Notes: generated from the sequence alone by a model not told the origin. 27,182 nt of DNA from Alphaproteobacteria bacterium (GCA_045605805.1 JAZUQR010000028.1:1-27182); one strand, 5' to 3'. Numbered from the stretch's first letter, positions 9,766 to 26,388 are shown. Program-made: numbers and translations.

Positions 9766-9766
9766 A

Positions 9767-10093: not shown

Positions 10094-10126
10094 AATTTTT
10101 TATTTATTACTTCATTTTCCGTGAAG

Positions 10127-10160: not shown

Positions 10161-10191
10161 CCATGAATAAATTGTTTTATGTGTGGTTTAA

Positions 10192-11100: not shown

Positions 11101-11161
11101 AATTTGTAAAATCTTTCTATTGTTAAAAAGTTTATTTATTTTATTTTAGGTTTTCCCATGA

Positions 11162-12112: not shown

Positions 12113-12125
12113 TTCTTTTTATAAT

Positions 12126-12314
12126 TTATTGTTCGTTTTCCGTTCTTTTTCTGAATAAACTTTTCACATCAAAAAACTTTCGTTCTTTGAACTCTGATTG
12201 TTTTCCAATGTTGAATGAAGCAAGGTTTCTCATGTAGCCCATGACCCTTGTCCAAACCTGCGTTTTCTGACGGTCATTTGTGTGTTCGTTTAAGAATTGA
12301 CTTTTGCTTTTCAT
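12126..12314 (-). CDS. Stand-alone NrdD C-terminal glycyl-radical domain peptide (62 aa)
   Basis: VWTRVMGYMRNLASFNIGKQSEFKERKFF matches the class III RNR C-terminal pattern R-V-x-G-Y-x-R...N.GK..E...R. Confidence 0.85.
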   Translation of the reverse strand: MKSKSQFLNEHTNDRQKTQVWTRVMGYMRNLASFNIGKQSEFKERKFFDVKSLFRKRTENEQ

Positions 12315-12338
12315 GGTAACATTGATTGCTTGTTTCCT

Positions 12339-12941
12339 TTACAATTTGTTCCAAACTTTGCGAACATTGGCAGACTTTGAACCATACTTTGCAACTTCAA
12401 AATGTGGGTAATCTTTGAAAGAAGTCCAACTTCCACCGTTCAACATTTCATCAGGACATCCACATTCTTGAACCAAATGTTTGTAAATGTCATCATTGGT
12501 AATGTATGAAGACCCCTTGAAAATACCAATATCAAACGCAATACCAAAGTTATGAAAACTTGAACCGCCTTTTGCATTTGTTACCTTTGAACCCTTTTTT
12601 GTTCGTCCAATTGCGTAAAGTTCATTCTGTTCATTTATGGTTCTTGTTCCACAAATTACCTTTACTGTGTAACCTGTTTTATTCATCCAGTCTGAAACAT
12701 GGTCATGAAACCATTTACGGACATTGAACTGAACACTTGGAAGAAGTGTTGAAAGATTACTTTCTGTTCTTTGGTCAAGACTTCCAAACTTCTTCAAATG
12801 TTTATCAGCGTCAAGTAACCATTGTTCAAGACATTTGTTCGTTTTATAACCCCTTATTCCATCCACCTTCCCGCAATCATACCCCGCAAATTTTAGCAAT
12901 CTTTGCAAGTATTCTGTATCATTGACAATTTTATTTATCAT
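12339..12941 (-). CDS. Endolysin: N-terminal peptidoglycan-binding domain plus M15 (L-Ala-D-Glu type) peptidase
   Basis: LQRLLKFAGYDCGKVDGIRGYKT (PG_binding_1-like), RTINEQNELYAIGRT...VTNAKGGSSFHNFGIAFDI and DYPHFE. Confidence 0.92.
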   Translation of the reverse strand: MINKIVNDTEYLQRLLKFAGYDCGKVDGIRGYKTNKCLEQWLLDADKHLKKFGSLDQRTESNLSTLLPSVQFNVRKWFHDHVSDWMNKTGYTVKVICGTRTINEQNELYAIGRTKKGSKVTNAKGGSSFHNFGIAFDIGIFKGSSYITNDDIYKHLVQECGCPDEMLNGGSWTSFKDYPHFEVAKYGSKSANVRKVWNKL

Positions 12942-13203
12942 TGTTCTGGTTCTGGTTCGGTTTCTTCTTTGATAATTCCTGTAAATGGTATTCTTCCAAG
13001 TGTTGCAATCTTAAATTCTGTTCTTTCAATGTGGTTGTAAATTCTTGGAACGCTGCTGTCTGTGACTGCATGAATTCACGCATATCAGAATAAAGGAAGA
13101 CCAAACCACAAATTGCAAGAAAACAAAACAATTCAAGTGGCTTCTCTGCAAGTTGTCTGAAAAAATAGACAATCATGTTTTCATCTGGTCTTTTCTGACA
13201 CAT
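12931..13203 (-). CDS. Putative holin / membrane lysis protein (90 aa)
   Basis: One hydrophobic segment (LFCFLAICGLVFLY) plus a coiled coil. Overlaps the endolysin start. Confidence 0.55.
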   Translation of the reverse strand: MCQKRPDENMIVYFFRQLAEKPLELFCFLAICGLVFLYSDMREFMQSQTAAFQEFTTTLKEQNLRLQHLEEYHLQELSKKKPNQNQNNDK

Positions 13204-13412
13204 TACTTCTTGTTCCCTTCTACTGTTAAAATTTCAACATCAAGTTGCTTTTCATGGTCTGCATAGTGTAATGTGCATGAAGTAAAATACAAGGCAGATA
13301 CTATACCGAACAATACACCAATGATAATCTTCACCAATGTATTGTTCATGCCTTTATTCACCGCCCATGAATAAACCTTTTTCAACATTTCAATAAAAGT
13401 TTCTTTTTTCAT
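13203..13412 (-). CDS. Small membrane / lipoprotein-like protein (69 aa) in the lysis cassette
   Basis: Hydrophobic stretch IIIGVLFGIVSALY ending in lipobox-like FTSC. Confidence 0.55.
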   Translation of the reverse strand: MKKETFIEMLKKVYSWAVNKGMNNTLVKIIIGVLFGIVSALYFTSCTLHYADHEKQLDVEILTVEGNKK

Positions 13413-13442
13413 TTTCGTTCAATTAATGTTTTGTTTTTCCAA

Positions 13443-14948
13443 TTATTCATTCAAGTTTGGTTCGGGTTCGGTGTCCTTTGGTAATGGTATTTCTTGACCG
13501 TTCCATTGTATCGGGGCTGCTCCTGCCATGTTTTGAATTAAACTTTCAACGGGTAACTGATACTTTTCCGCAATTTGTCGGATATGTGCAAGGTCATGTG
13601 CAGTTCTTTCAGCAATTTCTTCAACCGTCATTCCATAATTGGCAAGTGTCCATGTGTTACCGTCCGCAAGACCTGCGTTCTTTTGAGCAATGAAGTTATT
13701 TGTATCATGTCCCAAGTCAATTGACCATGCTGTTCTATTTATCCAAGTAACATGAAATTGTTCTTCGGGTTTGCTGCAAGGTCTCAATCTTCCCGCTTCA
13801 ATTTCACATGCAATGACATGTTGATAAACACGGTTTGCCCAGTTTTCTCTTGCATACAATCTTGACTTTGCCCAGTCTTTCGCCTTTGCCAAAATGAAGC
13901 GTGTAGAAGCAGACCCCAAAGTTTCAGGGTTGAATAAAACCTGTGGGTCAATTCCAACTGAATAAGCCAAACTGTTAATGAGGTCATGAACATATGCCCT
14001 GACTTCATTACTTGGGTTTTGGTTGTGAAGTGTCTTCAAATCTCGGCCAGGTTCAAGAGATATGGCTTTTACACCGTCAATAATAAGCGGTTGTTCCGTT
14101 TGTTGAACAATGGGTTCTTCACCGTTTTGTTTAGCCTGTCTTGCTTGAATGAGGTCATTCAAACCTGTTCTTTTATCTGCCATGTTTTTTGTTTCAACCA
14201 AACCAAATGTTGCCCCAATTTTGACCTGTTGTTTATGAAGTTTGTTTATTTCATAAATGTCTTGTGCGGTTGTAATTGCTGTTACCAATTCAGACTGACA
14301 TCTTGTTTCATTTGGTTCTTGGTTGTGACCGTATAGAATAGCCCTGTTTGCGTCAATTTCAACTGTCTTGTCAAGGTAATAATCTTTTACAAAATACTTT
14401 TGAGCCTTCCCGCTTTTACCGAACTTGACACCCATTGAAACACCGTTATTCTTGTCTTCATCACTCCAAATTTGAGGGGCTGCAAATAAGGCAATCCCCG
14501 CCCCCTTGTCAAATCCGCTTCTTGTCATTACTGTCAAACAATCACCGTCAATAATTGCTCGTTTTTCAATCCAATTTTGGCATTCAAAGAAGTTCATTTT
14601 ACCTGTGGTTTCAAATAAACGGGGGTTCATTGCTCGCTTCAAAAACGCTTCACGGGCTTCTTTGTTCCAATCTTCATCAGTTGTTGCGGGTCTTGGGGTC
14701 AATGTTCCCATTAACAAACATAAAGTTGAAACCGCTTGTTTTATTTCAGGTGTGTTCAAATACAAGTGTCTTGCCCTTTTCCAAATGGTTTGAATGTCCC
14801 ATTTTGAAATTTGGTTTCTTGGGTCAAGGTTAAACCAATCTGTCAATGAAAAGTTTCTGTCAGCCGTATAAAGTGCAGCGTCAGCACGGTTCAAAATTTC
14901 AATGTTTTTGTTCTTCTTTTTCTTCATTCTCTTGTTCATAGTCTTCAA
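13443..14948 (-). CDS. Portal protein, lambda-family-like (~500 aa; ATG at 14939 possible)
   Basis: RARHLYLN, IIDGDCL, LEPGRDLK and SASTRF motifs. Lies after the terminase and the gpW-like gene. Confidence 0.88.
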   Translation of the reverse strand: MKTMNKRMKKKKNKNIEILNRADAALYTADRNFSLTDWFNLDPRNQISKWDIQTIWKRARHLYLNTPEIKQAVSTLCLLMGTLTPRPATTDEDWNKEAREAFLKRAMNPRLFETTGKMNFFECQNWIEKRAIIDGDCLTVMTRSGFDKGAGIALFAAPQIWSDEDKNNGVSMGVKFGKSGKAQKYFVKDYYLDKTVEIDANRAILYGHNQEPNETRCQSELVTAITTAQDIYEINKLHKQQVKIGATFGLVETKNMADKRTGLNDLIQARQAKQNGEEPIVQQTEQPLIIDGVKAISLEPGRDLKTLHNQNPSNEVRAYVHDLINSLAYSVGIDPQVLFNPETLGSASTRFILAKAKDWAKSRLYARENWANRVYQHVIACEIEAGRLRPCSKPEEQFHVTWINRTAWSIDLGHDTNNFIAQKNAGLADGNTWTLANYGMTVEEIAERTAHDLAHIRQIAEKYQLPVESLIQNMAGAAPIQWNGQEIPLPKDTEPEPNLNE

Positions 14949-14958
14949 TTCTTTCTGT

Positions 14959-15228
14959 TTAGATTACACTCACAAATGACATAATGTTTGAACCTCCACC
15001 AATGAAACCGTTCTTCTTGTATTCAATGGCAAATGTCAATAACTCAACCAATTCTTGACTTGTCATGTTCAATGCCTTTGTATAACTTGCTCCTGCACCT
15101 GTGGAAGCGGAAACAATTCTGTCAGGGTTCTTCAACATCTCATTCACCGCTTTGGTAAGTTCTTGTTCAAGTTCTTCAACCGTGTATAAATTCGCAACTG
15201 CTTTTATTACTGTATCACTCAAATTCAT
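14959..15228 (-). CDS. gpW-like head-to-tail joining protein (89 aa)
   Basis: Small gene between TerL and portal, as in lambda. The ATG at 15228 lies 11 bp after the TerL stop. Confidence 0.6.
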   Translation of the reverse strand: MNLSDTVIKAVANLYTVEELEQELTKAVNEMLKNPDRIVSASTGAGASYTKALNMTSQELVELLTFAIEYKKNGFIGGGSNIMSFVSVI

Positions 15229-15239
15229 TTTATTATAAT

Positions 15240-16928
15240 TTACAATTGATTTTCCGTTTGAACGGGATTGACCCAAGTGCAGAATAAGCAAAGTTTCAAA
15301 CAGTCATTGTAATGGTCTTCTTTCAAATCTTTCCATTGTCTTTGACCTGACTTTGTGATTATCACCTGTTGCCCCTCTAACCCCTTTACAAGTTCATTGT
15401 CTGTGTTTGCAGGAAGATGAACCATTTTGTCCTTTATCTGATTGTGTAAAGTCATTTTCAATGAATAGTCATTGTATGTGTATAGCGTCAAATCTGCGTG
15501 TGTTCTTACTTGGGTTTCATTCCAAACACCCTTCGCGGTTGAACCTTTTGTTGGGTTCAATTTTCCATTTATTCCAAGAAGACATTCATTGTAAATTTCG
15601 TTTGTTGAATATCCGCTGTCAATGTATGCAATGTCAACACCCCAATCAACACCGTTTTTATCTTTCCAATTCAATTCATCAACCAATTTTTTGTAACCTG
15701 TTTTTCCATTTGCTGATGAATATGACATTAGCGTTCCCCAATCAATCACTTTCAATGAACCATCATGACAAACGGCTGTCGCAACCCAATGTGAAGCGTT
15801 TTGTCCTGCGTCACCTCCAAGAACAATGTAAAGTGTATTATCTGGTATTTCTCCACGCATGTATGACTTATCAATAATGTTTTGAATGTCATTAGTGGAA
15901 GTTGTTTGTCCAACCTCTGTGAAGGGAAGTGCAAGCCAACTGTTCTGAAAGTTCCTTATTGCTTCATGTTTGATTATTGAACTTTGGGCTTTTATAAACT
16001 CACACGCAATGTCACCAAATGAAACAAAAGGTGAATAAATTGAATTCAAATGATAACCATGATGTCCTTTTGTGTGGTTCGTTCTCGTTTTCACCCAATG
16101 CCCACGGTTCATGACTTCAATTTTCATGTTGTCGGTTATCTTGCCTTTGCAATGAGGGCAGACATAATGAGCCGTTTTTCTCACATGTTCAAGTGTTGCG
16201 TTCTCCCAATTTAGTGTTTCCTTGGAAAACACAAATTCAAAGTCTTCATTGCAATGGGGACATGGCATGAAGTAATGACTTTGACTTGAATGAAGGAACT
16301 CCTGATAAAATACATCTTCATTTACTGACGGGGTAGAAGAACTGATTATTTTGTGATTAGAAAATGACTTTGTTCGTTCTCTTACCAACAAATATGGATG
16401 TGCTTCTTTTACCGAACCTTTTTGCCATTTGCTCACTTCATCAAGCAACAATACCCCCGCAGACATGGAAGCCAACTTGTCAGCCGTTCTTGCCCCTGTA
16501 TAAAATGTGTCCATGGCAGGGAATAAAATCATGTTTTCTTGACCTTGGTTTTCGGGTGGAAGTTTTTCTTTCCACCATGAATTTGACTTTAATAACGGTA
16601 TCAATCTTCTACGGACAAGACGCTGTGCAAGTGGGTCAGTTGATAACGCAATTAAACAAGGCTTTGGATTAAACCTTGATAAAAGTAAATATGACAATAA
16701 AAGAATTGTCGTTTTTCCTGTTTGTGCTCCAAATACAAGAGTTATTTCTTGAACCCTTGGGTCAGTTACATCTTCAAGAATTTGCCTTGCCCACGGCTGT
16801 TGTGACAAGTCAAGATTACCCGCTGCATTTGGTGACACTTCTCTTGGAAAATAAACATTCTGTTCAAGCCAAAGTGAAGCGTCAATGTCCAAAGTTTCAT
16901 TGAACAATAATTGTGAAAAGTCATCCAT
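15240..16928 (-). CDS. Terminase large subunit, lambda GpA family (562 aa)
   Basis: Walker A GAQTGKT, Walker B LLLDE, SSTP coupling motif, two CPHC motifs, and nuclease-domain GGDAG and IDSGY. Confidence 0.95.
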   Translation of the reverse strand: MDDFSQLLFNETLDIDASLWLEQNVYFPREVSPNAAGNLDLSQQPWARQILEDVTDPRVQEITLVFGAQTGKTTILLLSYLLLSRFNPKPCLIALSTDPLAQRLVRRRLIPLLKSNSWWKEKLPPENQGQENMILFPAMDTFYTGARTADKLASMSAGVLLLDEVSKWQKGSVKEAHPYLLVRERTKSFSNHKIISSSTPSVNEDVFYQEFLHSSQSHYFMPCPHCNEDFEFVFSKETLNWENATLEHVRKTAHYVCPHCKGKITDNMKIEVMNRGHWVKTRTNHTKGHHGYHLNSIYSPFVSFGDIACEFIKAQSSIIKHEAIRNFQNSWLALPFTEVGQTTSTNDIQNIIDKSYMRGEIPDNTLYIVLGGDAGQNASHWVATAVCHDGSLKVIDWGTLMSYSSANGKTGYKKLVDELNWKDKNGVDWGVDIAYIDSGYSTNEIYNECLLGINGKLNPTKGSTAKGVWNETQVRTHADLTLYTYNDYSLKMTLHNQIKDKMVHLPANTDNELVKGLEGQQVIITKSGQRQWKDLKEDHYNDCLKLCLFCTWVNPVQTENQL

Positions 16929-16929
16929 T

Positions 16930-17697
16930 TTATTTGTTCTTCTTTATTTTGTTTCTGACAGGGTTCTTTGCCTTTTCCCTTCGGTTTTCTTTCTTGTCTA
17001 TACTTTGCAAGGCTTCAATCTGTGCAAGTTCTTTGTAATCGTTTAAGGCGTTTTCTGCTTCCTTTGCTGCGTCTTTGTAACGATAATAAGCCATGTTCCA
17101 TGCTCGTTGAAATTCAGGAACCATGTCAGCGGGTAAATTGTTTTCAATGGCAAGTTTCATTTCATCCAAACCGTTGTTCAATCTTGGGTAAAAGTGTGTT
17201 TTGTATCTTTCAAACACTTCCATTGGAAGATACTTGCCTTCTTGAACTTCCGCAATCTGTCGCAATCTGCAAAGTTCATTGAATGTGGAAGTTAAATCTT
17301 TCACACCTCCAACATACACACGCAATGTCTGAAACTGTTGTTCATTTATGGCTTCATCCAAAAGAAACTGTGTTTTTCTTAATTGGTTGAACGCTGTTTG
17401 TTCAAGTAACTTGTATCTTTCAACCAATGTGTCTGTAATGGTTTCTTGTTCCGTACATGCCACTTGATGAACATTTACTTCTTCAAGCAACTGTTCAAGT
17501 TCATTGTCATTCTTCTTTTCAATTGTCTTCATGTTTTTCATTTCAATATGTCTGTAATCAAACCCGTTTTCATTACACCACTGAACCCATTGTTCATGTT
17601 GTTTCTTTCGGTGTTCTCGTGCGGTCTTTGGTTTCAAGTTGAACTCTTTTGAATAAGCGTCAATTATCAATCTATCTGTGAAATTTCCACGGCTCAT
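16930..17697 (-). CDS. Probable terminase small subunit (255 aa)
   Basis: Ends 1 bp upstream of TerL and is helical/coiled-coil. Assigned by position. Confidence 0.6.
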   Translation of the reverse strand: MSRGNFTDRLIIDAYSKEFNLKPKTAREHRKKQHEQWVQWCNENGFDYRHIEMKNMKTIEKKNDNELEQLLEEVNVHQVACTEQETITDTLVERYKLLEQTAFNQLRKTQFLLDEAINEQQFQTLRVYVGGVKDLTSTFNELCRLRQIAEVQEGKYLPMEVFERYKTHFYPRLNNGLDEMKLAIENNLPADMVPEFQRAWNMAYYRYKDAAKEAENALNDYKELAQIEALQSIDKKENRREKAKNPVRNKIKKNK

Positions 17698-18000: not shown

Positions 18001-18660
18001 TTATGAAAATTGTTTTCTAAACTCTTTCACCTTTTTATCAAGTTTCTTCTTCTCTTTTTCAAGTTCGTTGTATCGTTCTTCAAGTTTTTTCATTGCTTCT
18101 TCATTTACTTCTAAAATCTAATTCAATCTGTCATCATCCAACATTGTGTAATGTGACTTGCCTTGCCAAAAGTTTCTGTCATGAAGAACGGCTTTAATCT
18201 CATTTATCAATTTATGAATGAAGTCAATTTTCTAAAAACAACTGTTCATTCTTCTTGTCAAACTTCTTCTTTCATTCGCTGTTCCATAATTCACATTGTC
18301 TTTCAAAGTCATGGCTTCAAGGTTATCAAATGAATTGTCATATGGGTTTTCATTTTTGTGGTTCAAGGTTTCACCATGTTTAAGTTCTCTTCCACCAAAT
18401 GCCTTCCAAATCATTCTGTGTAACATCTCATGAATGACTTTGCCATTGTCATCAGTCAATGTAACTTGAATGTAACCATGCCCATTGTCATACCCAATAA
18501 ATGACTTGGTTCTATTGCTCCAACATTTGCCATGCTTAAACCAAATGTATTCATTCAAGCCTTCAATCTTTGCTGCATATTCAAGAACGCTGTTCATGTT
18601 CTTCTCATTCATGACAGTCATGTTTGCTGTCTCCGTCTTTGTATTGTGATTTACTTTCAT
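18001..18660 (-). CDS. HNH endonuclease with C-terminal coiled coil (219 aa if the TAGs at 18232-18234 and 18118-18120 are read through; 142 aa otherwise)
   Basis: HRMIWKAF...LNHKNENPYDNSFDNLE HNH motif. Beyond the first TAG the frame stays open apart from one more TAG: KIDFIHKLINEIKAVLHDRNFWQGKSHYTMLDDDRLN*ILEVNEEAMKKLEERYNELEKEKKKLDKKVKEFRKQFS-TAA. Confidence 0.8.
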
Positions 18661-18828
18661 TGTAGTATTATTTAGTTTTTATTTTTAGGAAACCTGACCT
18701 TCACCGTGATTGTCAGTTTCATTTCCTATAATATTATTTATTCATTTCATTTCAAAAAAACTGTAAAAAATGCAACTTTTTTGAAAAAAAGTGAAAAAAA
18801 GTGAAAAAACTTCATGTAAAGTGATAAA

Positions 18829-19533
18829 TTACTTCTTCCACACATGAAGGCAATGTGACATTGCTCGTTTAATTGGTATAATTGGGGGAATTCTGCCTGT
18901 CAGATAATTCTTCAAGTAACCAATGTTTGCACACTCCACAAATAGAATTACAGACTTCAAGACTTGGATGTTTGAATAATGATTACCATTGAATTGACAG
19001 ACAAGGGCGTTTTGTTGGTTTGGTAACACACATTGCATAATTCTTATTCTTTCAGGCTTACAAACAATGTGACATAAACCTTGTAATGTTTCAAGCGGGT
19101 CACGATTAAACAAGTCAAAATAAAAAGGTTGTTCAAGCCACTTTATTATGTTTTCAATCATTGTCAAGTTTATTCCAAAACAAGAATTCAATGACTGTGT
19201 GTTTTCATTTGACATAAAACCCAAGTAATCACATTCACCCGTTGTCAATGGTTTATCAATGGGGCTTCTAAAAACAACACTTGACTTGGAAACAATGAGC
19301 GTTGAACCGTGGTTTTCTGCTAGAACTTTCAAGCATGATAGAAGTTTTAGAAAATTATTGTGTCCCCTTTGCGAAATGTCTATTCCAAACAAGTTCAATG
19401 AACCTTTTGGGGTATCTAATTTTTCAGGTGTAATGTAAATTACTTCCGCTGTTTTGTCAGACTTCTTTATTCCTTGGAAGTGCAAATGAAGAAGTTCTTG
19501 TTCGTCTTTATTGGTGAATGTTATGTAAGTCAT
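18829..19533 (-). CDS. Hypothetical protein (234 aa), possibly a divergent glycosyltransferase-like member of the sugar module
   Basis: Overlaps the end of the NeuA-like gene. No clear DxD motif, so function is uncertain. Confidence 0.6.
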   Translation of the reverse strand: MTYITFTNKDEQELLHLHFQGIKKSDKTAEVIYITPEKLDTPKGSLNLFGIDISQRGHNNFLKLLSCLKVLAENHGSTLIVSKSSVVFRSPIDKPLTTGECDYLGFMSNENTQSLNSCFGINLTMIENIIKWLEQPFYFDLFNRDPLETLQGLCHIVCKPERIRIMQCVLPNQQNALVCQFNGNHYSNIQVLKSVILFVECANIGYLKNYLTGRIPPIIPIKRAMSHCLHVWKK

Positions 19534-20287
19534 GTTTAGTGTTTAAGAATTGTTTTAGTTGTTCAGGATAATCAATATCAATGACCTGTCCGTTGTAATT
19601 TTCAATTAGGTTCTTGGGGCTGTCATGTCTCCAAAGAACTTGACTGTTCAAGAATTGTTTTCGTTTTCGGTACTGGTATTCAGTTTCAAAATTGTAACTT
19701 GCTTCAATACTGTCTTCATGATAATTTGGTTCTTTGAATATGTGGAAGCCATAAACCGCCCCGTCATACAACTTCAAGTAATCAATACCTGTGTTTCTTA
19801 TTGCTTCATTCCAGTTGTCACCGTTTGCATTGATTACCCGCCAAGGTTCTTCAAATGGAACTTTCACAAATGAAGTTACAAGTCGTGTGTCTTGCTTCAA
19901 TAAATCATTTATGACATCCACCAATAAACCGCTTCTTCTTTTTGGTTGCGTAAGTTGTAAAAGAATAATGATGTCTGCTTTGGTTTCTTCATCATACCAA
20001 TTCAATAAAGGCTTCATGTCATGTGATACTTCATCAGGGCAAAAGACTTTTCTAATTGGGAAGTTATACTTCAAATCTTCTTCATCATTGACAAGAACTT
20101 TCTAATTTCTCAATTCTACAACTTCAACTTTCAGATTGTTCTTGCCCCTCCACATTGAAACACATTGTTCTTTTATCAATTCAAGTTCATGCTCCAAATA
20201 TTCAAGCGTGAAGTGTCTCAAATAATGGTTCTTGTTCGGACATCGTTCTGAATGTTTTGTGTTTGGAATTAAAATTTCAATTTTCAT
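19508..20287 (-). CDS. NeuA/KdsB-like acylneuraminate cytidylyltransferase (259 aa) with in-frame TAG at 20102-20104
   Basis: ORFs 20102-20287 and 19508-20074 are in the same frame. N-terminal ILIPNTKHSERCPNKN resembles IPARxGSKRxPxKN. The C-terminal part has LLQLTQPKR, YDGAVY and IDIDYPEQL. Confidence 0.8.
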
Positions 20288-20874
20288 AAAAATACAATTT
20301 TACTTTGGTTTTTCATCCAATGTTGTTCTTTCTGCCAGTTGTAATGTTGGTTCATGTCAGTCATTCCGTTTGGGTAATTATGGGCGTTCTGACAATACTT
20401 CTTCACATTCTTGAAACCGTCTTGAAAATGACCGAACCCAATCAAATAAACCTTCTTGACATCTCTGTTCAAAAAATAATGAATTGATTGAATACCCGCT
20501 GAAACATTTTCATGACCAACTTCAACCAACAATTCATTCTTTTCACTTTCAGAATAACCAACAAATTGGTTTAATATAATTGTCTTCTTTGCTTTGTTCA
20601 ACACTTCATCAGTAAAGAAATTCATTCCGTTCTTAACCCATTGTTGCCACCTTGTAAAAATGAAGTCAGTTCTTGAACCAATGTCAAGTTCATTGCCATA
20701 CATTTTATTCACTCTTGCCACGATGTCAAAACGGTTGCCTTCAATTATGTTCTTCATTCTTCTTCCGTCTATGTCCTGACCGCTCCCAATAATTAGAACG
20801 GTCTTGTCTTTCAATCCAACTTCAATGTCATCAAATTCACATGAAGCCGTTTGGTCATTTGTAATTTCATTCAT
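20284..20874 (-). CDS. GT29 sialyltransferase-like glycosyltransferase (196 aa)
   Basis: Sialylmotif L-like VLIIGSG...FDIVARVN...IGSRTD, S-like SAGIQSI...VYLIGF and VS-like HYNWQKE. Confidence 0.7.
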   Translation of the reverse strand: MNEITNDQTASCEFDDIEVGLKDKTVLIIGSGQDIDGRRMKNIIEGNRFDIVARVNKMYGNELDIGSRTDFIFTRWQQWVKNGMNFFTDEVLNKAKKTIILNQFVGYSESEKNELLVEVGHENVSAGIQSIHYFLNRDVKKVYLIGFGHFQDGFKNVKKYCQNAHNYPNGMTDMNQHYNWQKEQHWMKNQSKIVFL

Positions 20875-20876
20875 GG

Positions 20877-21299
20877 TCAGTTTCTTTTCAAAATGTTTTC
20901 AATGTTTTTATTCTTACTGTTCAATTCTGCCATAACTCTGTTCAATTCATCATAATACTGATGTGTTGAAATTCCGAACAATGACTTCATTTCAAGAACT
21001 TTGAAATCCCTTTTGTTTAGTATGCTGTCAAGAATAACCGCACGGCTTGCAATTCTAGCGTATAATGCTTCAAGGTTCTTTTTAGACTTTCCGTTTGCTT
21101 GAATGTTGGTTATCCAATTCAAAATTGTTCGTATAACTTCAAGTCTATAATCTGCCATGTATTCTGTCAAATATTCAAGTTGGTCTTCATCAAATAAACC
21201 TTTTTCAAGGTCATGGGGAAGTGTTGCTTCACGCTTTATTTCCTATTCATTCCCAAAATTGTGAAGTTTCCAATCTTCTTTGTATTCAGTCTTGCTCAT
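20877..21299 (-). CDS. Hypothetical protein (140 aa) with in-frame TAG at 21243-21245
   Basis: ATG at 21299 preceded by AAGGGAG. MSKTEYKEDWKLHNFGNE*EIKREATLPHDLEKGLFDEDQLEYLTEYMADY... runs in frame into ORF 20877-21170. Confidence 0.72.
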
Positions 21300-21492
21300 T
21301 TGTTTTGTCTCCCTTCTTGAAAATGTAGTTGAAAAGTTTTACCATGTTTTCCCAAATTGCAACGGTTATTTCTTTGGCTAATTCCAAGGCAAAAGCAAAG
21401 AAAACTAAAATCATGACAAGTGCTATACTTGTTCCCAATAAATTAAAAAGTGCAATAAAGATGTTATCCATATATGTATTTAGTAATTTCAT
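21286..21492 (-). CDS. Small membrane protein (~68 aa)
   Basis: ATG at 21492 with GGAG upstream and a long hydrophobic stretch. The ORF-track extension to 21756 is antisense to the MTase. Confidence 0.6.
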   Translation of the reverse strand: MKLLNTYMDNIFIALFNLLGTSIALVMILVFFAFALELAKEITVAIWENMVKLFNYIFKKGDKTNEQD

Positions 21493-21523
21493 TCTCCGTT
21501 TTTTGTCACTTTTGGTAAAAAAC

Positions 21524-21551
21524 TTTACTTTTTTCAAAAAAAGTTTATAAT
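21524..21551 (+). promoter_or_regulatory. Sigma70-like promoter for the MTase (probably leaderless transcript)
   Basis: TTTACT (21524-29), 16 bp spacer, TATAAT (21546-51). The ATG follows 7 bp later with no SD. Confidence 0.55.
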
Positions 21552-21558
21552 TGGGCGT

Positions 21559-22494
21559 ATGGCTAAAATCACACATGACGAATTTTACACTCTGTTTCAA
21601 GATGTGGAAAATGAATTGAAACATTACAACTTCAAGAACGCTGTTGTATGGCTTCCGTGTGATAACTCTGCTTTTAGTTCTTTTTATCGTTACTTCTTTT
21701 TGAACTTTCATGAACTTGGTTTGAAAAAAGTAATCTGTTCTTGTTATGGCAAACAAGGCAAGGTTACAATCTTTGACGGAAGTTCAATTTCCACACATAT
21801 CTTGAACGGGGACGGTTCATTTGATTGTGATGAAGTGAAACCGTTTTTGAATGAATGTGACATTGTAGTTACAAATCCACCTTTTAGCAAGTTTGAACAG
21901 ATAACCGAACTTTGCATTGAAAACAACAAACGGTTCATTCTTCTTGGGTTCTTTGGTGTTCTTTACCGTCATAAAGTTTTTGAATTCCTGTTTCATGGCA
22001 AGTTGAAATTAGGCTATACAAGAAACAAGTCACTTGAATTCATTGTTCCTGATTGGTGTGATTATCACACAGAAAAGAACGGTGTTCATTATGTCACGCT
22101 GTCAAATGTGGTATTCTTCACAAACATTGACATTGATAAACAAGTTCAATTCAAGTCTGATGTCAAAATGTGTGATTATCCTTTTCAGAAATACAGCAAT
22201 TTTGACGCTTTTCACATTCCTGAATGTTCTCTTATTCCAAGTGACTGTTTTGAATTGTTGGCAGTTCCTTTGACTTATTTTACAATTCACGATGAAACCC
22301 AATTTGAAATTGTTGGAAGACTGCATTCATACCCAAAGAATGAACCTGAACATGGCAAGTATTGTGGAAAACGGGTCATGTGCATCAGTAAAGGCAAACA
22401 AGTTTATACAACGGGCGGGGTCATTGGTAATACTGCATACTTCACCCGCCTGTTAATCAAAAGGAAGTTCAATGGTTCTTCAACTTGTCAATGA
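21559..22494 (+). CDS. Adenine-specific DNA methyltransferase, EcoRI-methylase family (311 aa), orphan
   Basis: DEFYT, VVWLPCD, FHELGLKK, LNGDGSF and DIVVTNPPFS motifs. No adjacent endonuclease. Confidence 0.9.
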   Translation: MAKITHDEFYTLFQDVENELKHYNFKNAVVWLPCDNSAFSSFYRYFFLNFHELGLKKVICSCYGKQGKVTIFDGSSISTHILNGDGSFDCDEVKPFLNECDIVVTNPPFSKFEQITELCIENNKRFILLGFFGVLYRHKVFEFLFHGKLKLGYTRNKSLEFIVPDWCDYHTEKNGVHYVTLSNVVFFTNIDIDKQVQFKSDVKMCDYPFQKYSNFDAFHIPECSLIPSDCFELLAVPLTYFTIHDETQFEIVGRLHSYPKNEPEHGKYCGKRVMCISKGKQVYTTGGVIGNTAYFTRLLIKRKFNGSSTCQ

Positions 22495-22666
22495 CCTTTT
22501 TATTCACACAAATGAATTGTAAAATGTCAATGTCCTTGAACATCTTTGCAAGTTCAATGTAGTCATTGGCAAGTTCAATCTGTTGTTCAAAATGGTCAAT
22601 CAGTTCTTCTTCACATATATGGTGAAGTTCGGTTTCACATGTGTTGTCTTTCATTGGAATGTTCAT
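22469..22666 (-). CDS. Small acidic hypothetical protein (65 aa)
   Basis: ATG to TGA, convergent with and overlapping the 3' end of the MTase. Confidence 0.55.
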   Translation of the reverse strand: MNIPMKDNTCETELHHICEEELIDHFEQQIELANDYIELAKMFKDIDILQFICVNKKVIDKLKNH

Positions 22667-22797
22667 GAATTATTTTATGGCATTCTTTCCTTTTTATTTA
22701 TGTATAGAACGGGGGGTTGTTCCGTTTGGGTATAAAGTATCATGAAAAGGGCAATCCCCTTTTCTGTGTTGTATTATGTGGCAAGAATGAGCCATTT

Positions 22798-23680
22798 TGA
22801 AACTTGAAACTATAAGCACGGTATAATGACTTGTTTTTGACCCTGACAAAAAAATGATAACTTAAAAGTATAGTAACATAAAGTAATCTTCTTTCTTCTT
22901 TTATTACCATAGTTTCAAGTTATCATTTTATTCTAGTCTATTATTTTTGATTACTGTTCTTGTTTATGGTTCAAGTTTAGTTCAATGAAAAGTAATCAAG
23001 TCAAGTGTTCATGTCTATGGTTCAAGTCTAGTTCAACCAAAAAAAGAAATGAAGCCCACTTGCTCCGCAAGGGGCTGAATGAACGATAAAACAGAATGTT
23101 TTTTCAGGGGGCGTGGGGGGTGAAAACACCCCCACATCAATGAAAAGTAATCATGTCAAGTAATCAATACAGTATTCATGTCTATGTTTCAATGATACTG
23201 TTTTGAATACTGTTCAAGTCAAGTGTTCAAGTTTAGTGTTCTTGTTTATAATTCAAGTTTAGTTCAATGACATTGTTCTTGTCTATGGTTCAAGTAAAGT
23301 AATCAATACAGTATTCATGTCTATGTTTCAATGATACTGTTTTGAATACTGTTCTAGTCTATTATTCTTGATTACTGTTCTTGTCTATGGTTCAAGTCAA
23401 GTGATGTTGTTTCCGTTGGTTCCCCCCGTGAGGGAACCCCCCAACGGATTATTTTCTTTGTCGTTCCGTCTTGCCCCCTCCGTCCTCCTGGGGGGGCAAT
23501 CCGTCACTTATGTTGTTTTTAGGTTCAAGTCCAGTGTTCATGTTTAGTGTTCAGGTCTATAATAAAATGATAACTTAAAAGTATAGTAATATAAGATAAT
23601 CTTCTTTTATTACCATTATTTCAAGTTATCATTTTTTGGTTCAAGTAATCAATACACTGTGCTTATAGTTTCAAGTTTCA
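22798..23680. repeat. Symmetric non-coding repeat and hairpin array bounded by a perfect 22-bp inverted repeat; candidate replication origin
   Basis: TGAAACTTGAAACTATAAGCAC at 22798-22819 and its reverse complement at 23659-23680. Hairpin repeats at 22851-22929 and 23564-23635, a 58-bp exact repeat at 23158-23215 and 23297-23354, a 46-bp repeat at 22931-22976 and 23352-23397, and many GTTCWWGTYTA-like units. Confidence 0.85.
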
Positions 23681-23681
23681 T

Positions 23682-24575
23682 TCAAGCCCAAAAAAATTGA
23701 AACTTCACTTTGCCAAACTTCATGATGTCACCGTTCTGTTTGTCTTTCATCTTTCGTGAAAAGTTGGATTTGGCAACCTTGAATTCTTTTGCTGCTTCCG
23801 TCATGCTGTCAAATACTTTTTCAATTCCTGTTCCAACTTCAATGAACTTCATTCTTTTAGTCAAATGGTCATTGTTGCAACCTTTTGTTCTACCCTGTTT
23901 AACTTCTTCAATCTTTCCGTTCTTGTCCATTGTCAAACCCCTTTTCAAAAGTCTATTTGCAAAACAAGCGTTCATAAACACACGGTCTGTCAATTTGATG
24001 AAGTAATGTTTTTCAAGTTTGGTTTCTTCAATAAACTTCAATTCAGTTGAACACCATGTTTGAACCTTGGTTTCAGTTTCTCTTTCATGTACCGTGTAAC
24101 CCAATGTTGCCACCGTTATTGTTGATTTCTTGTTTAGATATATGTCAAGTTGGTTGTTCATTTTGCGTTTTGCAATCCTGTATTCAACTTCAATGTCATT
24201 GTTCTTGTCATGTGCCAACTCTGAAAGTTCTTCTTTCAACTTGTCATGTTTAATCTTTACTTCATCGTTGTTCAAGACATGTTTGTTTATGGTTTCAAAT
24301 ACTGCAAGTTCTGTGAATTTGCTTTGAAACTTTAATTCAACTTCACTGTGTTTGTTCTTCAACTTCTTTTCTATTGCAAAGAATGCCCCCTTATCTGTCA
24401 CCAAATAAAACCAGTTGAACGGAAAATGAAACACTTCTTCATTGATGTCATTGGGGAAGTTCTACTTCAACACTTGAACAATGATGTTGTTCTGTGTTAC
24501 TTTGTTGGTTGAACTTTGGAAGTCTGTCAAAAGGGCAAATTCAGGTTCGTTTGTTGTTTGGTTTTTCATCGTCAT
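23682..24575 (-). CDS. Putative DNA-binding protein with C-terminal NUMOD1-like HTH (297 aa) with in-frame TAG at 24462-24464
   Basis: MTMKNQTTNEPEFALLTDFQSSTNKVTQNNIIVQVLK*NFPNDINEEVFHFPFNW... is in frame with ORF 23682-24434. C-terminal KVFDSMTEAAKEFKVAKSNFSRKMK. Confidence 0.7.
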
Positions 24576-24882: not shown

Positions 24883-26388
24883 TTAATGTTCCATGATGAA
24901 CCTTGCCAGTTCTTCACCGTGTATTGCAACCAATTCTTCAAACTTCTTTTGAGCGTCTTTCTTTTCATCGTCAGATTTGTCAATGAGGGTATGAACAAGA
25001 AGGTTTGAACCGTCTTTGTCACGCTTCATGTCATGTTCAATTTGACGCTGTTCTTCAATTCTCTTCTTCTCCTCCAATTCATCAATGTATGCAACTTCAA
25101 GACCCCTTTTTGTTAATGGTATTTGAATGACCTTGTAAGCCATGTGGTTCAACATTGCTTCCGTTGTTCGTTTGGGGTCTGCTGCCAAGTCAAGGTAAAA
25201 CTTCGCTGTTGTATTGTTCGGTTTGTGACCCTGCAAGTAGTCAATCGCGTTCTGGTTAAAATGTTCAGCCGATAAAATAGAACTTACTGTTCCACGCAAT
25301 GAATAAAGACAATGTGTGTGGTATCTCTTACCGCTGGAAACTTTATGTGTTCCAAGTTCTTTCATCTCTCTGAATGCCCTGAACAAATATACAAGTGATT
25401 GTCCCCCCGCAATTGACAAGTAATCTTCAAAGTTCTTCTTGTTTGTTCCCTTGTCAGAATAAAATGAAAACACATACTTCTTGTTCAACGGTTCTTCTTT
25501 TTCGTGCCACTCCTGCATTTTCCAAAAGATTTCCAACAAATGAGGTGTCAAGAAAATTACAGTTGAAATTCCCTTTTTCTCTGTTTTGGTATGAACAATT
25601 GTCAATGTTCTTTTGGTGAAGTCTATTTGTTCCCATTTAAGAAGAACAATATCTTTGGGTCTGATACCTGTCAAGGCAAGTAAATAGACCATGCAAAAAC
25701 GCTGAACTTTTTCAACATCTCTTGCTTGCTTGATTTTCGTTTTCTGCCAAACAAGTGAAAACTTTAACAGTTCCCGTATCTCTTCGAGGGTAAGTCTTGC
25801 TTTACTCTGAATTGGTTCTTCCTGTGCAATCTTTTCAAGTTTGAGTGTTGCAAAAGGGTTCTTGTACCCAAGGGAACTGTCTTCAAATTCATCCATAATA
25901 ATGTTGAATACATACCCCAAACGCAACCAACGATGTTTTTTGTATGAGAATGTTCTTTTTTGTTGCTTCATCCATTCATGGAATTCTCTTGCAATCTTCT
26001 TGTTTATTTGGTGCAAGTAAATTTTTTCATGTCCTTTTTCTTTCAAGAATGTGCAGAATTCATTGACAATGTTCTTTGCCCTTTTTCTGTCCTGATAGTT
26101 CTTGCAACGGGTCAGGTTATCCCCTTCAACCTGTTCCAAATATTGAATTGCAAAGTATGGTGTTTCTCCTGTTTCAGTCAGGTCTTCATTGTTCTTAATT
26201 GCTTCACTTTTTTTGAGTGTCCAATTCTCTTGTTCTTTACAAAACTTTTTCAGTTCTTCAATTTTCAACTTGATTTCATTTGCTGTCATGTTTTCAGTTG
26301 AAACTTGTTTTCGGACATAGGTATTTTTCAAGTAATCCGTCCAACGATAGAAAATTTTTTTCTGTTTTTTGTCGTGCTTTATTTTCAT
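24883..26388 (-). CDS. int: Tyrosine recombinase / phage integrase (501 aa)
   Basis: LTGIRPKD (R), HTKT (K), YSLR (HxxR variant), LQGH (H) and TAKFY (catalytic Y). Adjacent to the att repeat. Confidence 0.93.
   Translation of the reverse strand: MKIKHDKKQKKIFYRWTDYLKNTYVRKQVSTENMTANEIKLKIEELKKFCKEQENWTLKKSEAIKNNEDLTETGETPYFAIQYLEQVEGDNLTRCKNYQDRKRAKNIVNEFCTFLKEKGHEKIYLHQINKKIAREFHEWMKQQKRTFSYKKHRWLRLGYVFNIIMDEFEDSSLGYKNPFATLKLEKIAQEEPIQSKARLTLEEIRELLKFSLVWQKTKIKQARDVEKVQRFCMVYLLALTGIRPKDIVLLKWEQIDFTKRTLTIVHTKTEKKGISTVIFLTPHLLEIFWKMQEWHEKEEPLNKKYVFSFYSDKGTNKKNFEDYLSIAGGQSLVYLFRAFREMKELGTHKVSSGKRYHTHCLYSLRGTVSSILSAEHFNQNAIDYLQGHKPNNTTAKFYLDLAADPKRTTEAMLNHMAYKVIQIPLTKRGLEVAYIDELEEKKRIEEQRQIEHDMKRDKDGSNLLVHTLIDKSDDEKKDAQKKFEELVAIHGEELARFIMEH

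What the first reader, a model, noticed from the sequence alone, without database searches (positions are those of the whole stretch)
18001..24575. Amber (TAG) recoding or readthrough confined to the non-structural module
Seen: five in-frame TAGs in four genes (18118, 18232, 20102, 21243, 24462). Reading through each one fills otherwise unexplained gaps, restores an ATG start or a TAA/TGA end, and gives natural-looking protein. All ~30 other genes I call end in TAA or TGA. I found no internal TAA, TGA or frameshift breaks in these four genes, whereas random decay in an AT-rich genome should not give only TAG. All five TAGs are followed by a purine (A, A, A, G, A). Known: TAG-to-Gln recoding (code 15) occurs in gut phages such as crAss-like and Lak phages, and has been reported as enriched in late structural and lysis genes. 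Inference: here the pattern is inverted. The packaging, head, tail and lysis genes and the integrase are TAG-free, while the origin-adjacent DNA-binding protein, the NeuA-like enzyme and HNH carry TAGs. No suppressor tRNA or release factor is visible. This could be a translational switch that depends on a host or helper-phage suppressor, or an early stage of recoding.
Basis: partly seen in the sequence, partly recalled or inferred. Interest (0 to 1): 0.92.

Follow-up and report, generated by a model that had tools for sequence, protein, structure and literature searches.

The report
Sparse amber-to-glutamine recoding in phage
A small temperate gut phage, and its relatives, keep a few TAG "stop" codons inside working genes at glutamine positions and never end a gene with TAG, a thin version of a known phage trick that carries no visible means of reading TAG.

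Summary
All 33 genes end in TAA or TGA. No gene has an internal TAA or TGA.

Each TAG lies inside a frame that homologues keep whole. Close relatives (86-97% identical) have Gln at four of the five sites, or their protein stops exactly there. A collinear relative (TerL 73% identical) has seven more in-frame TAGs, in terminase, endolysin and a tail gene among others. It has no TAG terminators. One of its TAGs sits in the same column (ELRN-TAG-KV) of the cytidylyltransferase-like gene.

I read this as code-15-type TAG-to-Gln use; I put the odds that the TAGs are translated at about 0.77. It is far sparser than in the published Garnet and Topaz phages (4 of 33 genes). No tRNA is found in either phage. 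The genome it was binned with has RF1 and no CUA tRNA, but that host link is unsupported.

"Confined to the non-structural module" holds for this phage and its relatives of 90% identity or more. In the more distant relative it is only an enrichment. The decoder of TAG is unknown.

Verdict: a new variant of a known kind, of moderate interest.

The parts
18001..18660 (-). HNH endonuclease gene, 219 codons if TAG is read. It lies just upstream of the terminase genes.
   Evidence: Pfam HNH_3 at 35.4 bits against a cut-off of 24.8. The PHROG 59 match spans residues 5-173, across the TAG at codon 143. Thirteen full-length relatives of 217-232 aa were found.
18232..18234 (-). In-frame TAG, HNH codon 143.
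   Evidence: Gln in 13 of 13 full-length relatives; 6 other cluster members end exactly here.
18118..18120 (-). In-frame TAG, HNH codon 181.
   Evidence: Gln in 7 and Asp in 6 of 13 full-length relatives; the nearest relative (97% identical) has Gln.
19508..20287 (-). Gene B: KdsB/NeuA-fold cytidylyltransferase-like protein, 259 codons if TAG is read.
   Evidence: AlphaFold2 model with pLDDT 78 and pTM 0.81. Foldseek probability 1.0 and TM 0.5-0.66 to CMP-Kdo and CMP-NeuAc synthetases. No Pfam hit. Homologues are whole across the TAG.
20102..20104 (-). In-frame TAG, gene B codon 62 (ELRN-TAG-KV), just after core strand 53-60.
   Evidence: Gln in 2 of 2 full-length close relatives; 7 other 61-aa fragments end here. 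There is a TAG in the same column in G061, whose gene B is 42% identical. Twenty-one bases around the codon are identical in the two phages.
20877..21299 (-). Gene C: 140-codon protein of unknown function.
   Evidence: The N-terminal motif upstream of the TAG (MSKTEYKEDW..HNF) is conserved in homologues at 59% and 44-46% identity.
21243..21245 (-). In-frame TAG, gene C codon 19.
   Evidence: All 4 members of the 90% cluster are the 93-aa downstream piece. The only whole homologues are distant; the 59% one has Thr near this column, where the alignment is loose.
23682..24575 (-). Gene D: 297-codon protein next to the iteron-rich region, possibly DNA-binding.
   Evidence: The C-terminus gives weak NUMOD1-like hits (E 0.03, below cut-off). 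The model is poor (pLDDT 56). The N-terminus upstream of the TAG is conserved in P0042 and P0014.
24462..24464 (-). In-frame TAG, gene D codon 38.
   Evidence: Gln in P0042 (94% identical) and Asn in P0014 (58-60% identical). Most other cluster members are shorter downstream pieces, eight of them 239 aa.
18829..19533 (-). TAG-free 234-aa neighbour of unknown function in the same accessory block.
   Evidence: 11 of 11 cluster members are 234 aa. Its G061 homologue carries a TAG at codon 14.
20284..20874 (-). TAG-free 196-aa neighbour of unknown function.
   Evidence: 15 of 15 cluster members are 196 aa.
24883..26388 (-). Tyrosine integrase, TAG-free.
   Evidence: Pfam Phage_integrase, E 4e-12. 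12 of 12 cluster members are 500-519 aa.
325..17697 (-). Packaging, lysis, head and tail module: 23 genes and 5630 codons, with no in-frame TAG.
   Evidence: It is collinear with G061.

Best explanation
The four genes are intact, and their UAG codons are translated as glutamine. This is a sparse form of the TAG-to-Gln (code 15) recoding known from gut phages.

The lineage has dropped TAG as a terminator. It tolerates, and at one site conserves, TAG at Gln positions. The phage has no tRNA gene, so the decoder must come in trans. I commit to an efficient amber suppressor, such as a tRNA-Gln with a CUA anticodon, supplied by the real host or by a co-resident element.

The practical effect is a gate. 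The full-length HNH nuclease, the cytidylyltransferase-like enzyme, the 140-aa protein and the origin-adjacent protein are made only when UAG is being decoded. The integrase and, in this sub-lineage, the virion and lysis genes are independent of it.

Shown: the TAGs; frames conserved across them; Gln or a stop at the same columns in relatives; TAGs in essential genes of a relative; no TAG terminators; no tRNA on either phage.

Inferred: that translation really passes the TAGs, that Gln is the residue inserted, and where the decoder comes from and how efficient it is.

Odds that the TAGs are translated at all: about 0.77. Odds for this efficient-suppressor version: 0.5.
For: 1. Only TAG interrupts frames: 5 of 5 here and 7 of 7 in G061. 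The joint p is about 8e-7 under random nonsense changes.

2. TAG ends 0 of 33 genes here and 0 of 28 in G061.

3. Frames are conserved across the TAGs.
- In gene B, 10 of 10 homologues that span the site keep conserved ELRN and V around it.
- The predicted KdsB/NeuA fold needs the first 61 residues.
- The most conserved segment of gene C lies upstream of its TAG.
- The N-terminus of gene D is conserved.

4. Residues at the TAG columns in close relatives:
- HNH codon 143: Gln in 13 of 13.
- HNH codon 181: Gln in 7 of 13, Asp in 6.
- Gene B codon 62: Gln in 2 of 2.
- Gene D codon 38: Gln in 1 of 1.
- Both gene B TAGs of G061 are Gln in a 91%-identical protein.

5. The same stop points recur in several diverged assemblies. 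Seven other 61-aa gene B fragments and six other 142-143-aa HNH fragments were found, some on contigs of 26,483 and 28,233 bases.

6. The gene B TAG column is shared at three depths: the window, a lineage whose downstream piece is 71% identical (61-aa P0026 with 169-aa P0005) and G061 at 42% identity. The frame is still open on both sides in all three.

7. G061 carries TAGs in TerL (codon 243), endolysin (143) and a tail gene (72). Its gene B has two TAGs, as does the HNH gene here. Two weak leaks in series would give almost no product, which favours efficient decoding.

8. All 12 TAGs in the two phages are followed by a purine (p about 0.007). From recall of E. coli work by Bossi and by Miller and Albertini, this is the context in which amber suppression works best.

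9. In the Borges et al. preprint (passages), TAG suppressor tRNAs were detected in only 40% of TAG-recoded phage genomes. A phage without one is therefore not unusual.
Against: - No decoder was found. There is no tRNA in the window or in G061. None of the 52 tRNAs of the binned genome has a CUA anticodon. That genome has intact RF1 and RF2, and 135 of 1051 of its long ORFs end in TAG.
- TAG use is very thin: 5 TAG against 372 CAA and CAG codons. This fits a costly codon better than a free synonym.
- At the more distant comparisons the TAG columns are not Gln. Gene B codon 62 is E 5, S 3, L 1, Q 1 in 10 homologues. The window has H, K, D, E and K at five of G061's TAG columns; a sixth is the column the two phages share, and the tail-gene site was not compared.
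- For relatives known only as proteins I cannot see that the stop is TAG. I also cannot rule out that a code-15-aware gene caller wrote Q for a TAG. Fragments from the same sources argue against that.
- The HNH, gene B and gene D alleles with Gln are 93-97% identical to the window's, so those TAGs could be recent.
- No peptide or RNA evidence exists.
Confidence: 0.5

Rival explanations
1. Leaky stops used as attenuators. UAG is still mainly a stop in the infected cell. A few percent of ribosomes read it with the host's near-cognate tRNA-Gln (CUG). The TAGs therefore hold down the output of proteins needed in small amounts, and no dedicated suppressor exists.
For: - No tRNA on the phage, and no CUA tRNA but RF1 in the binned genome.
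- TAG is rare, at 1.3% of Gln-type codons.
- 12 of 12 TAGs are followed by a purine.
- One TAG is conserved in position, which fits a regulatory role better than a neutral synonym.
- TAGs tend to lie early in genes. The mean relative position of the 12 is 0.33, my arithmetic.
- TAGs are enriched in enzymes and regulators.
- Gln insertion at UAG in suppressor-free E. coli is in the literature (recalled: Nilsson and Ryden-Aulin 2003; not read here).
Against: - Genes with two TAGs (the HNH gene here, gene B in G061) would yield almost no full-length product, yet their downstream frames stay open.
- TerL, endolysin and a tail gene of G061 carry TAGs.
- A mostly efficient stop gives no reason for 0 of 61 TAG terminators, though low GC content alone may deplete TAG.
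Confidence: 0.27
2. Plain nonsense alleles. The TAGs are CAG-to-TAG mutations that knock out or shorten dispensable accessory genes, and they circulate as polymorphisms. The truncated HNH protein still holds its HNH domain, and gene D could restart at a GTG.
For: - Alleles with Gln and alleles cut at the same codon coexist among relatives of 86-97% identity.
- The affected genes here are accessory. The HNH domain (residues 79-123) lies before the first TAG.
- The gene callers behind the collection give 142, 61+188, 93 and 250 aa products for this contig.
Against: - TAG only, 12 of 12 across two phages, although CAA outnumbers CAG by 263 to 109 and would give TAA.
- There are no frameshifts and no second hits.
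- The gene B stop column is shared at 71% and 42% identity with both halves still open.
- G061 has TAGs in TerL, endolysin and a tail gene.
- Neither phage has a TAG terminator.
- The conserved N-termini of genes C and D would be lost.
Confidence: 0.15
3. Split genes. Each TAG is a true stop, and the downstream part is translated separately from an internal start. The result is two polypeptides that work together or alone.
For: Start codons follow each TAG: TTG for gene B, GTG for gene D, ATG or TTG for gene C.
Against: - The gene B break falls inside the core sheet of a single-domain fold.
- Close relatives have a single Gln codon there and no intergenic signal.
- The restart points skip conserved residues.
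Confidence: 0.03
4. Artefact. The TAGs are assembly or sequencing errors, or a chimera of strains.
For: The contig comes from a metagenome bin. Strain variants exist in many gut samples.
Against: The same truncation points appear in independent assemblies from several sources. An independent IMG/VR contig shows the same habit. Errors would not produce only TAG.
Confidence: 0.02

Closest known systems
Garnet and Topaz clades of TAG-recoded temperate gut phages (Borges et al., bioRxiv 10.1101/2021.08.26.457843; passages read)
   Same: Small temperate gut phages (clade means 22-34 kb; curated prophages of about 24 kb) from pigs, cattle and humans. TAG is read as Gln. The integrase is free of in-frame TAG. 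The hosts use the standard code. Many such genomes have no detectable suppressor tRNA.
   Different: [quoted passage not shown] Here only 4 of 33 genes do (5 codons), none of them a head, tail or lysis gene. Coding density rises only from about 0.85 to 0.87. Whether this phage belongs to either clade could not be tested, because no Garnet or Topaz sequence was on hand.
crAss-like and Lak code-15 phages (search listings: PMC9523058 for metaproteomic proof of Gln at TAG, PMC10607447 for phAss-1; not read beyond the listing)
   Same: TAG is used as a Gln codon by phages of standard-code gut bacteria.
   Different: Those are large virulent phages with dense TAG use in late genes. They often carry their own suppressor tRNA and sometimes release factors. 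This is a 27-kb integrase-bearing phage with no tRNA.
Gain and loss of in-frame TAG as synonymous change within recoded phage populations (Lou et al., bioRxiv 10.1101/2023.08.07.552389; passages read)
   Same: [quoted passage not shown]
   Different: That study follows lytic phages that already carry many TAGs, mainly in structural genes. Here a handful of sites lie in accessory genes, and one is conserved across 42% protein identity.
Akkermansia phage Moulinsart (ON453896.1), the nearest deposited phage
   Same: TerL is 38.9% and portal 38.6% identical. It has a similar size (31 kb) and module order, and an integrase-like end.
   Different: It is only distantly related. As annotated, its genes are whole under the standard code. 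I did not check it for in-frame TAGs.

Membership tests
TAG-to-Gln (code 15) recoded phage | Conserved genes are interrupted by in-frame TAG and by no other stop or frameshift. | tested here: met
   5 TAG, 0 TAA and 0 TGA in 4 genes. Homologues are whole across each site.
TAG-to-Gln (code 15) recoded phage | TAG is not used, or hardly used, as a terminator. | tested here: met
   0 of 33 genes here and 0 of 28 in G061.
TAG-to-Gln (code 15) recoded phage | Homologues have Gln at the TAG columns. | tested here: met
   In close relatives: HNH codon 143, 13 of 13; HNH codon 181, 7 of 13 (Asp in 6); gene B codon 62, 2 of 2; gene D codon 38, 1 of 1. Gene C codon 19 has no close whole homologue. Distant homologues vary (E, S, L, N, T).
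TAG-to-Gln (code 15) recoded phage | Related phages share the habit. | tested here: met
   G061 (TerL 73% identical, collinear) has 7 in-frame TAGs. Fragment patterns in 90% clusters fit the same picture.
TAG-to-Gln (code 15) recoded phage | The phage encodes a suppressor tRNA (CUA). This is common but not universal: 40% of TAG-recoded genomes in the Borges preprint. | tested here: not met
   ARAGORN and Rfam (E up to 1) find no tRNA in the window or in G061.
TAG-to-Gln (code 15) recoded phage | Recoded codons are concentrated in structural and lysis genes. | tested here: not met
   0 of 5 here. In G061, 4 of 7 lie in the packaging, lysis and tail block, but the density is about 8 times higher in the accessory genes.
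TAG-to-Gln (code 15) recoded phage | Peptides show Gln at UAG. | not testable with these tools
   No proteome is available, and no RNA run was listed.
Garnet or Topaz clade | Placement inside the clade on a large-terminase tree. | not testable with these tools
   No clade sequences were held. The nearest record in the phage collection is Akkermansia phage Moulinsart at 39% identity.
HNH endonuclease (Pfam HNH_3) | Profile match above the curated cut-off. | tested here: met
   35.4 bits against 24.8, residues 79-123. Ten PHROG HNH families also match.
CMP-sugar cytidylyltransferase (KdsB/NeuA type) | Fold of the family. | tested here: met
   Foldseek probability 1.0, E 5e-10 to 2y6p (KdsB), TM 0.5-0.66; CMP-NeuAc and CMP-Kdn synthetases are among the top ten.
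CMP-sugar cytidylyltransferase (KdsB/NeuA type) | Sequence-profile membership and catalytic residues. | tested here: not met
   No Pfam or PHROG family at E up to 0.01 or 0.001. Catalytic residues were not examined. The enzyme's function is therefore only inferred from the fold.

The most novel reading that the evidence does not exclude
The TAGs are position-specific genetic-code sensors in a phage that has no tRNA. The ELRN-TAG-KV site, kept across 42% protein identity, and the other amber codons would hold a replication, modification and packaging-helper gene set silent. They would be read only when a trans-acting amber suppressor appears in the cell, for example from a superinfecting code-15 phage (crAss-like or Lak) or from a conditional host factor. 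The small phage would then sense another element's code change or a host state. Alternatively, a means of decoding UAG that needs no phage tRNA exists in these gut bacteria.
Probability: 0.15. Interest if true: 0.85.

Novelty: new variant of a known kind. Interest (0 to 1): 0.55.

Why it matters
- Detection. Recoding this thin raises coding density by only about 2 points (0.85 to 0.87; my arithmetic). Screens that pick alternative codes by the gain in density would call this phage standard-code. The extent of amber use in phages may therefore be underestimated.

- Annotation. Four genes of this contig, and their relatives in public collections, are stored as fragments of 142, 61+188, 93 and 250 aa.

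- Decoder. Two tRNA-less phages with TAGs in needed genes sharpen an open question left by the published work: what reads UAG in such cells?

- Function. One amber codon kept at the same column over deep divergence, together with the bias away from virion genes in this sub-lineage, suggests that stop-codon gating is not used only to time lysis.

Tried and rejected
Searches for DNA of relatives
- No DNA relatives in 60 related genomes or in the deposited-phage collection.
- TerL was found at no more than 30% identity in the 79 other genomes of the binned genome's family.
- Scans for related loci were empty in genome contigs and metagenome contigs.
- In viral contigs four scans were empty and two returned only G061.
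- A 20-base motif around the gene B TAG found G061 and one unrelated contig, L040, which has no homology to the window's proteins.
- As a result, DNA-level evidence rests on the window and G061 alone.

Reads
- 20 runs from 11 studies of animal-gut metagenomes (pig, goat and bovine among those named) hold parts of the stretch. No RNA holder was listed.
- I laid the contigs of four runs. The table of differences shows only 40 of 689 places, and none of them is a TAG position. It says nothing either way about the bases at the TAGs.

Host link
- No match to the contig's left end in 60 relatives.
- No spacer-like matches, only one 21-base hit.
- The contig has the lowest tetranucleotide correlation with the bin (0.816) of the 21 contigs longer than 9 kb.

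Other checks
- The other low-GC contigs of the bin (C2, C23, C25, C31, C29) show no clear amber-only pattern.
- The gene D structure model was too poor to search with (pLDDT 56).
- Pyrrolysine was rejected: there is no CUA tRNA, and relatives have Gln at the sites.
- The 62-aa forms of the 59%-identical gene C lineage diverge in sequence at their ends. They look like frameshifts or replacements, not amber sites.
- This scan's earlier notes hold nothing on this genome or on look-alikes of its TerL.

Full report
WHAT THE WINDOW IS

The window is one whole contig, C28, of a 1.21-Mb, 31-contig genome bin. It has 36% GC, against about 41% for the rest of the bin.

It is a small tailed phage. Nearly all genes lie on the minus strand. 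From right to left they are:
- a tyrosine integrase (24883-26388);
- a 297-codon protein (gene D) beside an iteron-rich region;
- an EcoRI-like adenine methyltransferase on the plus strand;
- a block of accessory genes;
- an HNH endonuclease;
- a 255-aa protein in the small-terminase position (not identified by any search);
- a gpA-type large terminase and a lambda-type portal;
- an M15-peptidase endolysin;
- a head protease, the major head protein, a tape-measure protein and tail genes.

A 260-base direct repeat with two mismatches lies at 129-388 and at 26923-27182, the very end of the contig. Relatives turn up as contigs of 26.5-29.3 kb. The contig is therefore probably a complete genome.

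One search places TAG codons on the minus strand at exactly the five reported positions:
- HNH gene, codon 143 (18232-18234) and codon 181 (18118-18120);
- gene B, 19508-20287, codon 62 (20102-20104);
- gene C, 20877-21299, codon 19 (21243-21245);
- gene D, 23682-24575, codon 38 (24462-24464).

With TAG read through, each frame runs from an ATG to TAA or TGA with no other break.

In my list of 33 genes, 19 end in TAA, 14 in TGA and none in TAG. The in-frame stops are 5 TAG, 0 TAA and 0 TGA.

Random single-base nonsense changes in these genes would give TAG about 31% of the time, so five of five has p about 0.003. CAA outnumbers CAG by 263 to 109, so decay of Gln codons should mostly produce TAA.

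The rest of the bin ends 135 of 1051 long ORFs in TAG. At that rate, 0 of 33 has p about 0.011. This borrowed rate is only a rough guide for an AT-richer phage.

All five TAGs are followed by a purine. Taken alone this is not significant (p 0.125), because 66% of codons here start with a purine.

THE FRAMES ARE REAL ACROSS THE TAGS

Gene B.
- 10 of the 10 homologues that span the site keep the flanking ELRN and V.
- An AlphaFold2 model built on that alignment has pLDDT 78 and pTM 0.81. It matches CMP-Kdo and CMP-sialic-acid synthetases with Foldseek probability 1.0 and TM 0.5-0.66.
- The TAG follows core strand 53-60, so the first 61 residues are part of the single domain.
No Pfam or PHROG family matches.

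HNH gene.
- The Pfam HNH_3 domain lies at residues 79-123.
- The PHROG 59 match runs from residue 5 to 173, across the first TAG.

Gene C.
- The best-conserved stretch of the family is the N-terminus upstream of the TAG.

Gene D.
- The 37 residues upstream of the TAG are conserved in proteins 94% and 58-60% identical.
- Its C-terminus gives only sub-threshold NUMOD1-like hits (E 0.03), and its model was poor. "DNA-binding" remains a guess.

WHAT RELATIVES HAVE AT THE TAG COLUMNS

The protein collection holds clusters of 90% identity around each gene.

HNH gene: 19 non-window members in two clusters.
- 13 are full length (217-232 aa). All 13 have Gln at codon 143.
- At codon 181, seven have Gln and six have Asp. 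The nearest relative (97% identical) has Gln.
- Six others end exactly after residue 142.

Gene B: 26 cluster members, of which 15 were listed and 13 are not the window's own.
- Two are full length (259 aa), both with Gln at codon 62.
- Seven are 61-aa pieces that end exactly at ELRN. They differ from one another at several positions.
- Four are downstream pieces.

Gene D: 12 non-window members.
- One (295 aa, 94% identical) spans the site, and it has Gln.
- Eight are 239-aa downstream pieces.
- The 58-60% homologue has Asn.

Gene C.
- All four members of the cluster, the window's own among them, are the 93-aa downstream piece, seen on up to 15 contigs.
- The only whole homologues are distant. 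The 59% one has Thr near this column, where the alignment is loose.

A 3310-base contig carries whole forms of the HNH gene and gene B.

Two caveats apply. For these protein-only relatives I cannot see which stop codon ends the fragments. I also cannot fully rule out that a code-15-aware gene caller wrote Q for a TAG. The presence of fragments from the same sources argues that the standard code was used.

A RELATIVE SEEN AS DNA SHOWS THE SAME HABIT

IMG/VR contig G061 is 22,947 bases, 37% GC, and classed as linear and incomplete. It is collinear with the window from the accessory block through the tail genes. TerL is 72-73% identical and portal 75%.

Its 28 genes end in TGA (16) or TAA (12), never in TAG. 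It has seven in-frame TAGs and no in-frame TAA or TGA:
- gene B, codons 56 and 75;
- the homologue of the 234-aa gene, codon 14;
- TerL, codons 3 and 243;
- endolysin, codon 143;
- a tail gene, codon 72.

All seven are followed by a purine. That makes 12 of 12 in the two phages (p about 0.007).

Gene B codon 75 of G061 is the same alignment column as the window's TAG, although the two proteins are only 42% identical. Twenty-one bases around the codon are identical, although preferred AT-rich codons may account for that.

A protein 91% identical to G061's gene B has Gln at both of G061's TAG columns. Cluster members of that lineage again show pieces that start or end at those columns.

A third lineage also ends at ELRN. 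Its 61-aa piece is P0026, and its 169-aa downstream piece P0005 is 71% identical to the window's.

So the stop in gene B has been kept or regained at three depths of divergence while both halves of the frame stay open. This is the strongest argument that ribosomes pass it.

At five of G061's TAG columns the window has H, K, D, E and K, not Gln. A sixth is the column the two phages share, and the tail-gene site was not compared. The Gln evidence therefore comes from close relatives only.

IS IT CONFINED TO THE NON-STRUCTURAL MODULE?

In the window, yes. There are 5 TAGs in 2319 non-structural codons and 0 in 5630 structural codons (Fisher p 0.002; 0.001 against Gln-type codons; post hoc).

The pattern repeats in relatives of 90% identity or more:
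- TerL: 8 of 8 members have 562 aa.
- Endolysin: 8 of 9 have 199-200 aa. The ninth lies on a 648-base contig.
- Protease: 10 of 10.
- Major head protein: 3 of 3.
- Integrase: 12 of 12.
- The 234-aa neighbour: 11 of 11. The 196-aa neighbour: 15 of 15.
- The exact sequences of the portal and of the 322-aa tail protein were not in the collection.

In G061, TAGs also lie in TerL, endolysin and a tail gene. Even so, the density is about eight times higher in the three visible accessory genes: 3 in 604 codons against 4 in 6128 (p 0.02).

The bias is therefore real, but it is not a rule of the clade. In addition, the HNH gene next to the terminase genes is probably a packaging helper. That rests on my recall of HK97-type phages and on no call here.

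THE DECODER IS MISSING

ARAGORN and Rfam (E up to 1) find no tRNA in the window or in G061.

The bin has 52 tRNAs, none with a CUA anticodon. It has RF1 and RF2, both well above the NCBIfam cut-offs. It uses TAG as a stop.

The link between the phage and this bin is unsupported.
- No relatives of the phage were found in 79 genomes of the same family.
- No attachment-site match was found.
- No spacer-like match was found, and the contig has the lowest tetranucleotide correlation in the bin (0.816).

The nearest deposited phage is Akkermansia phage Moulinsart, with 39% identity in TerL and portal. A member of the 59%-identical gene C cluster is labelled by NCBI as coming from an Akkermansia sp. 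MAG (MBQ2813627.1) and has been seen on contigs of up to 71.8 kb. Both are leads only. The endolysin is a bacterial M15 peptidase.

Parts of the stretch occur in animal-gut metagenomes, pig, goat and bovine among those named (20 runs, 11 studies).

READING

I put about 0.77 on the TAGs being translated, most likely as Gln.

Within that, I favour an efficient amber suppressor supplied in trans (0.5) over weak near-cognate readthrough used as an attenuator (0.27).
- For the efficient suppressor: genes with two TAGs, and the TerL, endolysin and tail genes of G061, would be starved by a weak leak. Neither phage ends any of its 61 genes in TAG.
- For a costly, regulated codon: TAG use is thin (5 against 372 CAA and CAG codons), the purine context is uniform, and one site is conserved in position. 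The question stays open.

Plain nonsense alleles in dispensable genes keep 0.15.

COMPARISON WITH PRINT

I read passages of the Borges et al. preprint.
- It describes TAG-recoded temperate gut phages, Garnet and Topaz, with clade means of 22-34 kb and curated prophages of about 24 kb.
- Their integrases are free of in-frame TAG and their hosts use the standard code.
- TAG suppressor tRNAs were detected in only 40% of TAG-recoded genomes.
- The authors also raise the idea that recoding could let a phage sense a co-infecting phage's suppressor.

I read passages of Lou et al., who report gain and loss of in-frame TAG within phage populations.

The other papers named in this report were seen only in search listings.

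What is different here:
- the thinness of TAG use (4 of 33 genes, a rise of about 2 points in coding density);
- the bias away from virion genes in this sub-lineage;
- the complete absence of tRNA genes;
- one amber codon conserved in position.

Two full-text searches turned up no description of such sparse, accessory-gene-biased amber use. That is a limited search.

Earlier notes of this scan (unchecked AI notes) describe other small elements and prophages that use amber codons without a decoder of their own. They fit this picture but are not independent evidence.

VERDICT

This is a new variant of a known kind, and the open question is what decodes UAG.

Noticed in passing
window 129-388 and 26923-27182: A 260-base direct repeat with two mismatches. 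The right copy ends exactly at the contig end, and the first 128 bases match nothing else. It is either a wrap-around of a circular genome of about 26.8 kb with strain variation, or attL and attR of a prophage with 128 bases of host flank.
   Followed up: partly
window 22848-23635: Two palindromic units of about 85 bases (22848-22932 and 23561-23635) lie 713 bases apart as direct repeats. They bracket about 620 bases packed with 16-51-base iterons and two G+C-rich hairpins, which looks like an origin. Contigs from two runs skip 712-714 bases between the units, so relatives may lack this insert, or assemblies may collapse it.
   Followed up: partly
window 18660-18829: This intergenic stretch between the HNH gene and the 234-aa gene has spiking word depth and loose ends in all four laid runs. 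It also has short 83-100% matches in other contigs of the bin and in unrelated genomes. It looks like a short sequence shared by many elements.
   Followed up: no
window 18829-20874: An accessory block of three adjacent minus-strand genes: a 196-aa protein, the KdsB/NeuA-fold protein and a 234-aa protein. It is conserved in G061 and in many contigs. It may be a sugar-nucleotide or modification pathway of unknown target. The two neighbours match no family.
   Followed up: partly
window 21559-22494 (+): An EcoRI-type adenine methyltransferase (Pfam E 6.5e-60). It is the only clear plus-strand gene and carries no TAG.
   Followed up: no
whole contig against the bin G000: The host assignment looks weak. 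The contig has the lowest tetranucleotide correlation of the 21 contigs longer than 9 kb (0.816). No attB or spacer link was found. The nearest deposited phage infects Akkermansia, and a 59%-identical gene C homologue is labelled as from an Akkermansia sp. MAG.
   Followed up: partly
12 TAG sites in the window and in G061 (L017, L018): Every TAG is followed by A or G (12 of 12, p about 0.007). The TAGs also tend to lie early in genes, with a mean relative position of 0.33 (my arithmetic).
   Followed up: partly
proteins P0192, P0194, P0196, P0197, P0200: In the 59%-identical gene C lineage, five of the 11 cluster members are 62-aa forms whose ends diverge in sequence. This looks like a frameshift or a replaced C-terminus, not an amber site.
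   Followed up: no
G000 contig C18, 8945-9260: ARAGORN marks the tmRNA with an asterisk. From recall, that marks a permuted (two-piece) tmRNA and points to an alphaproteobacterial bin.
   Followed up: no
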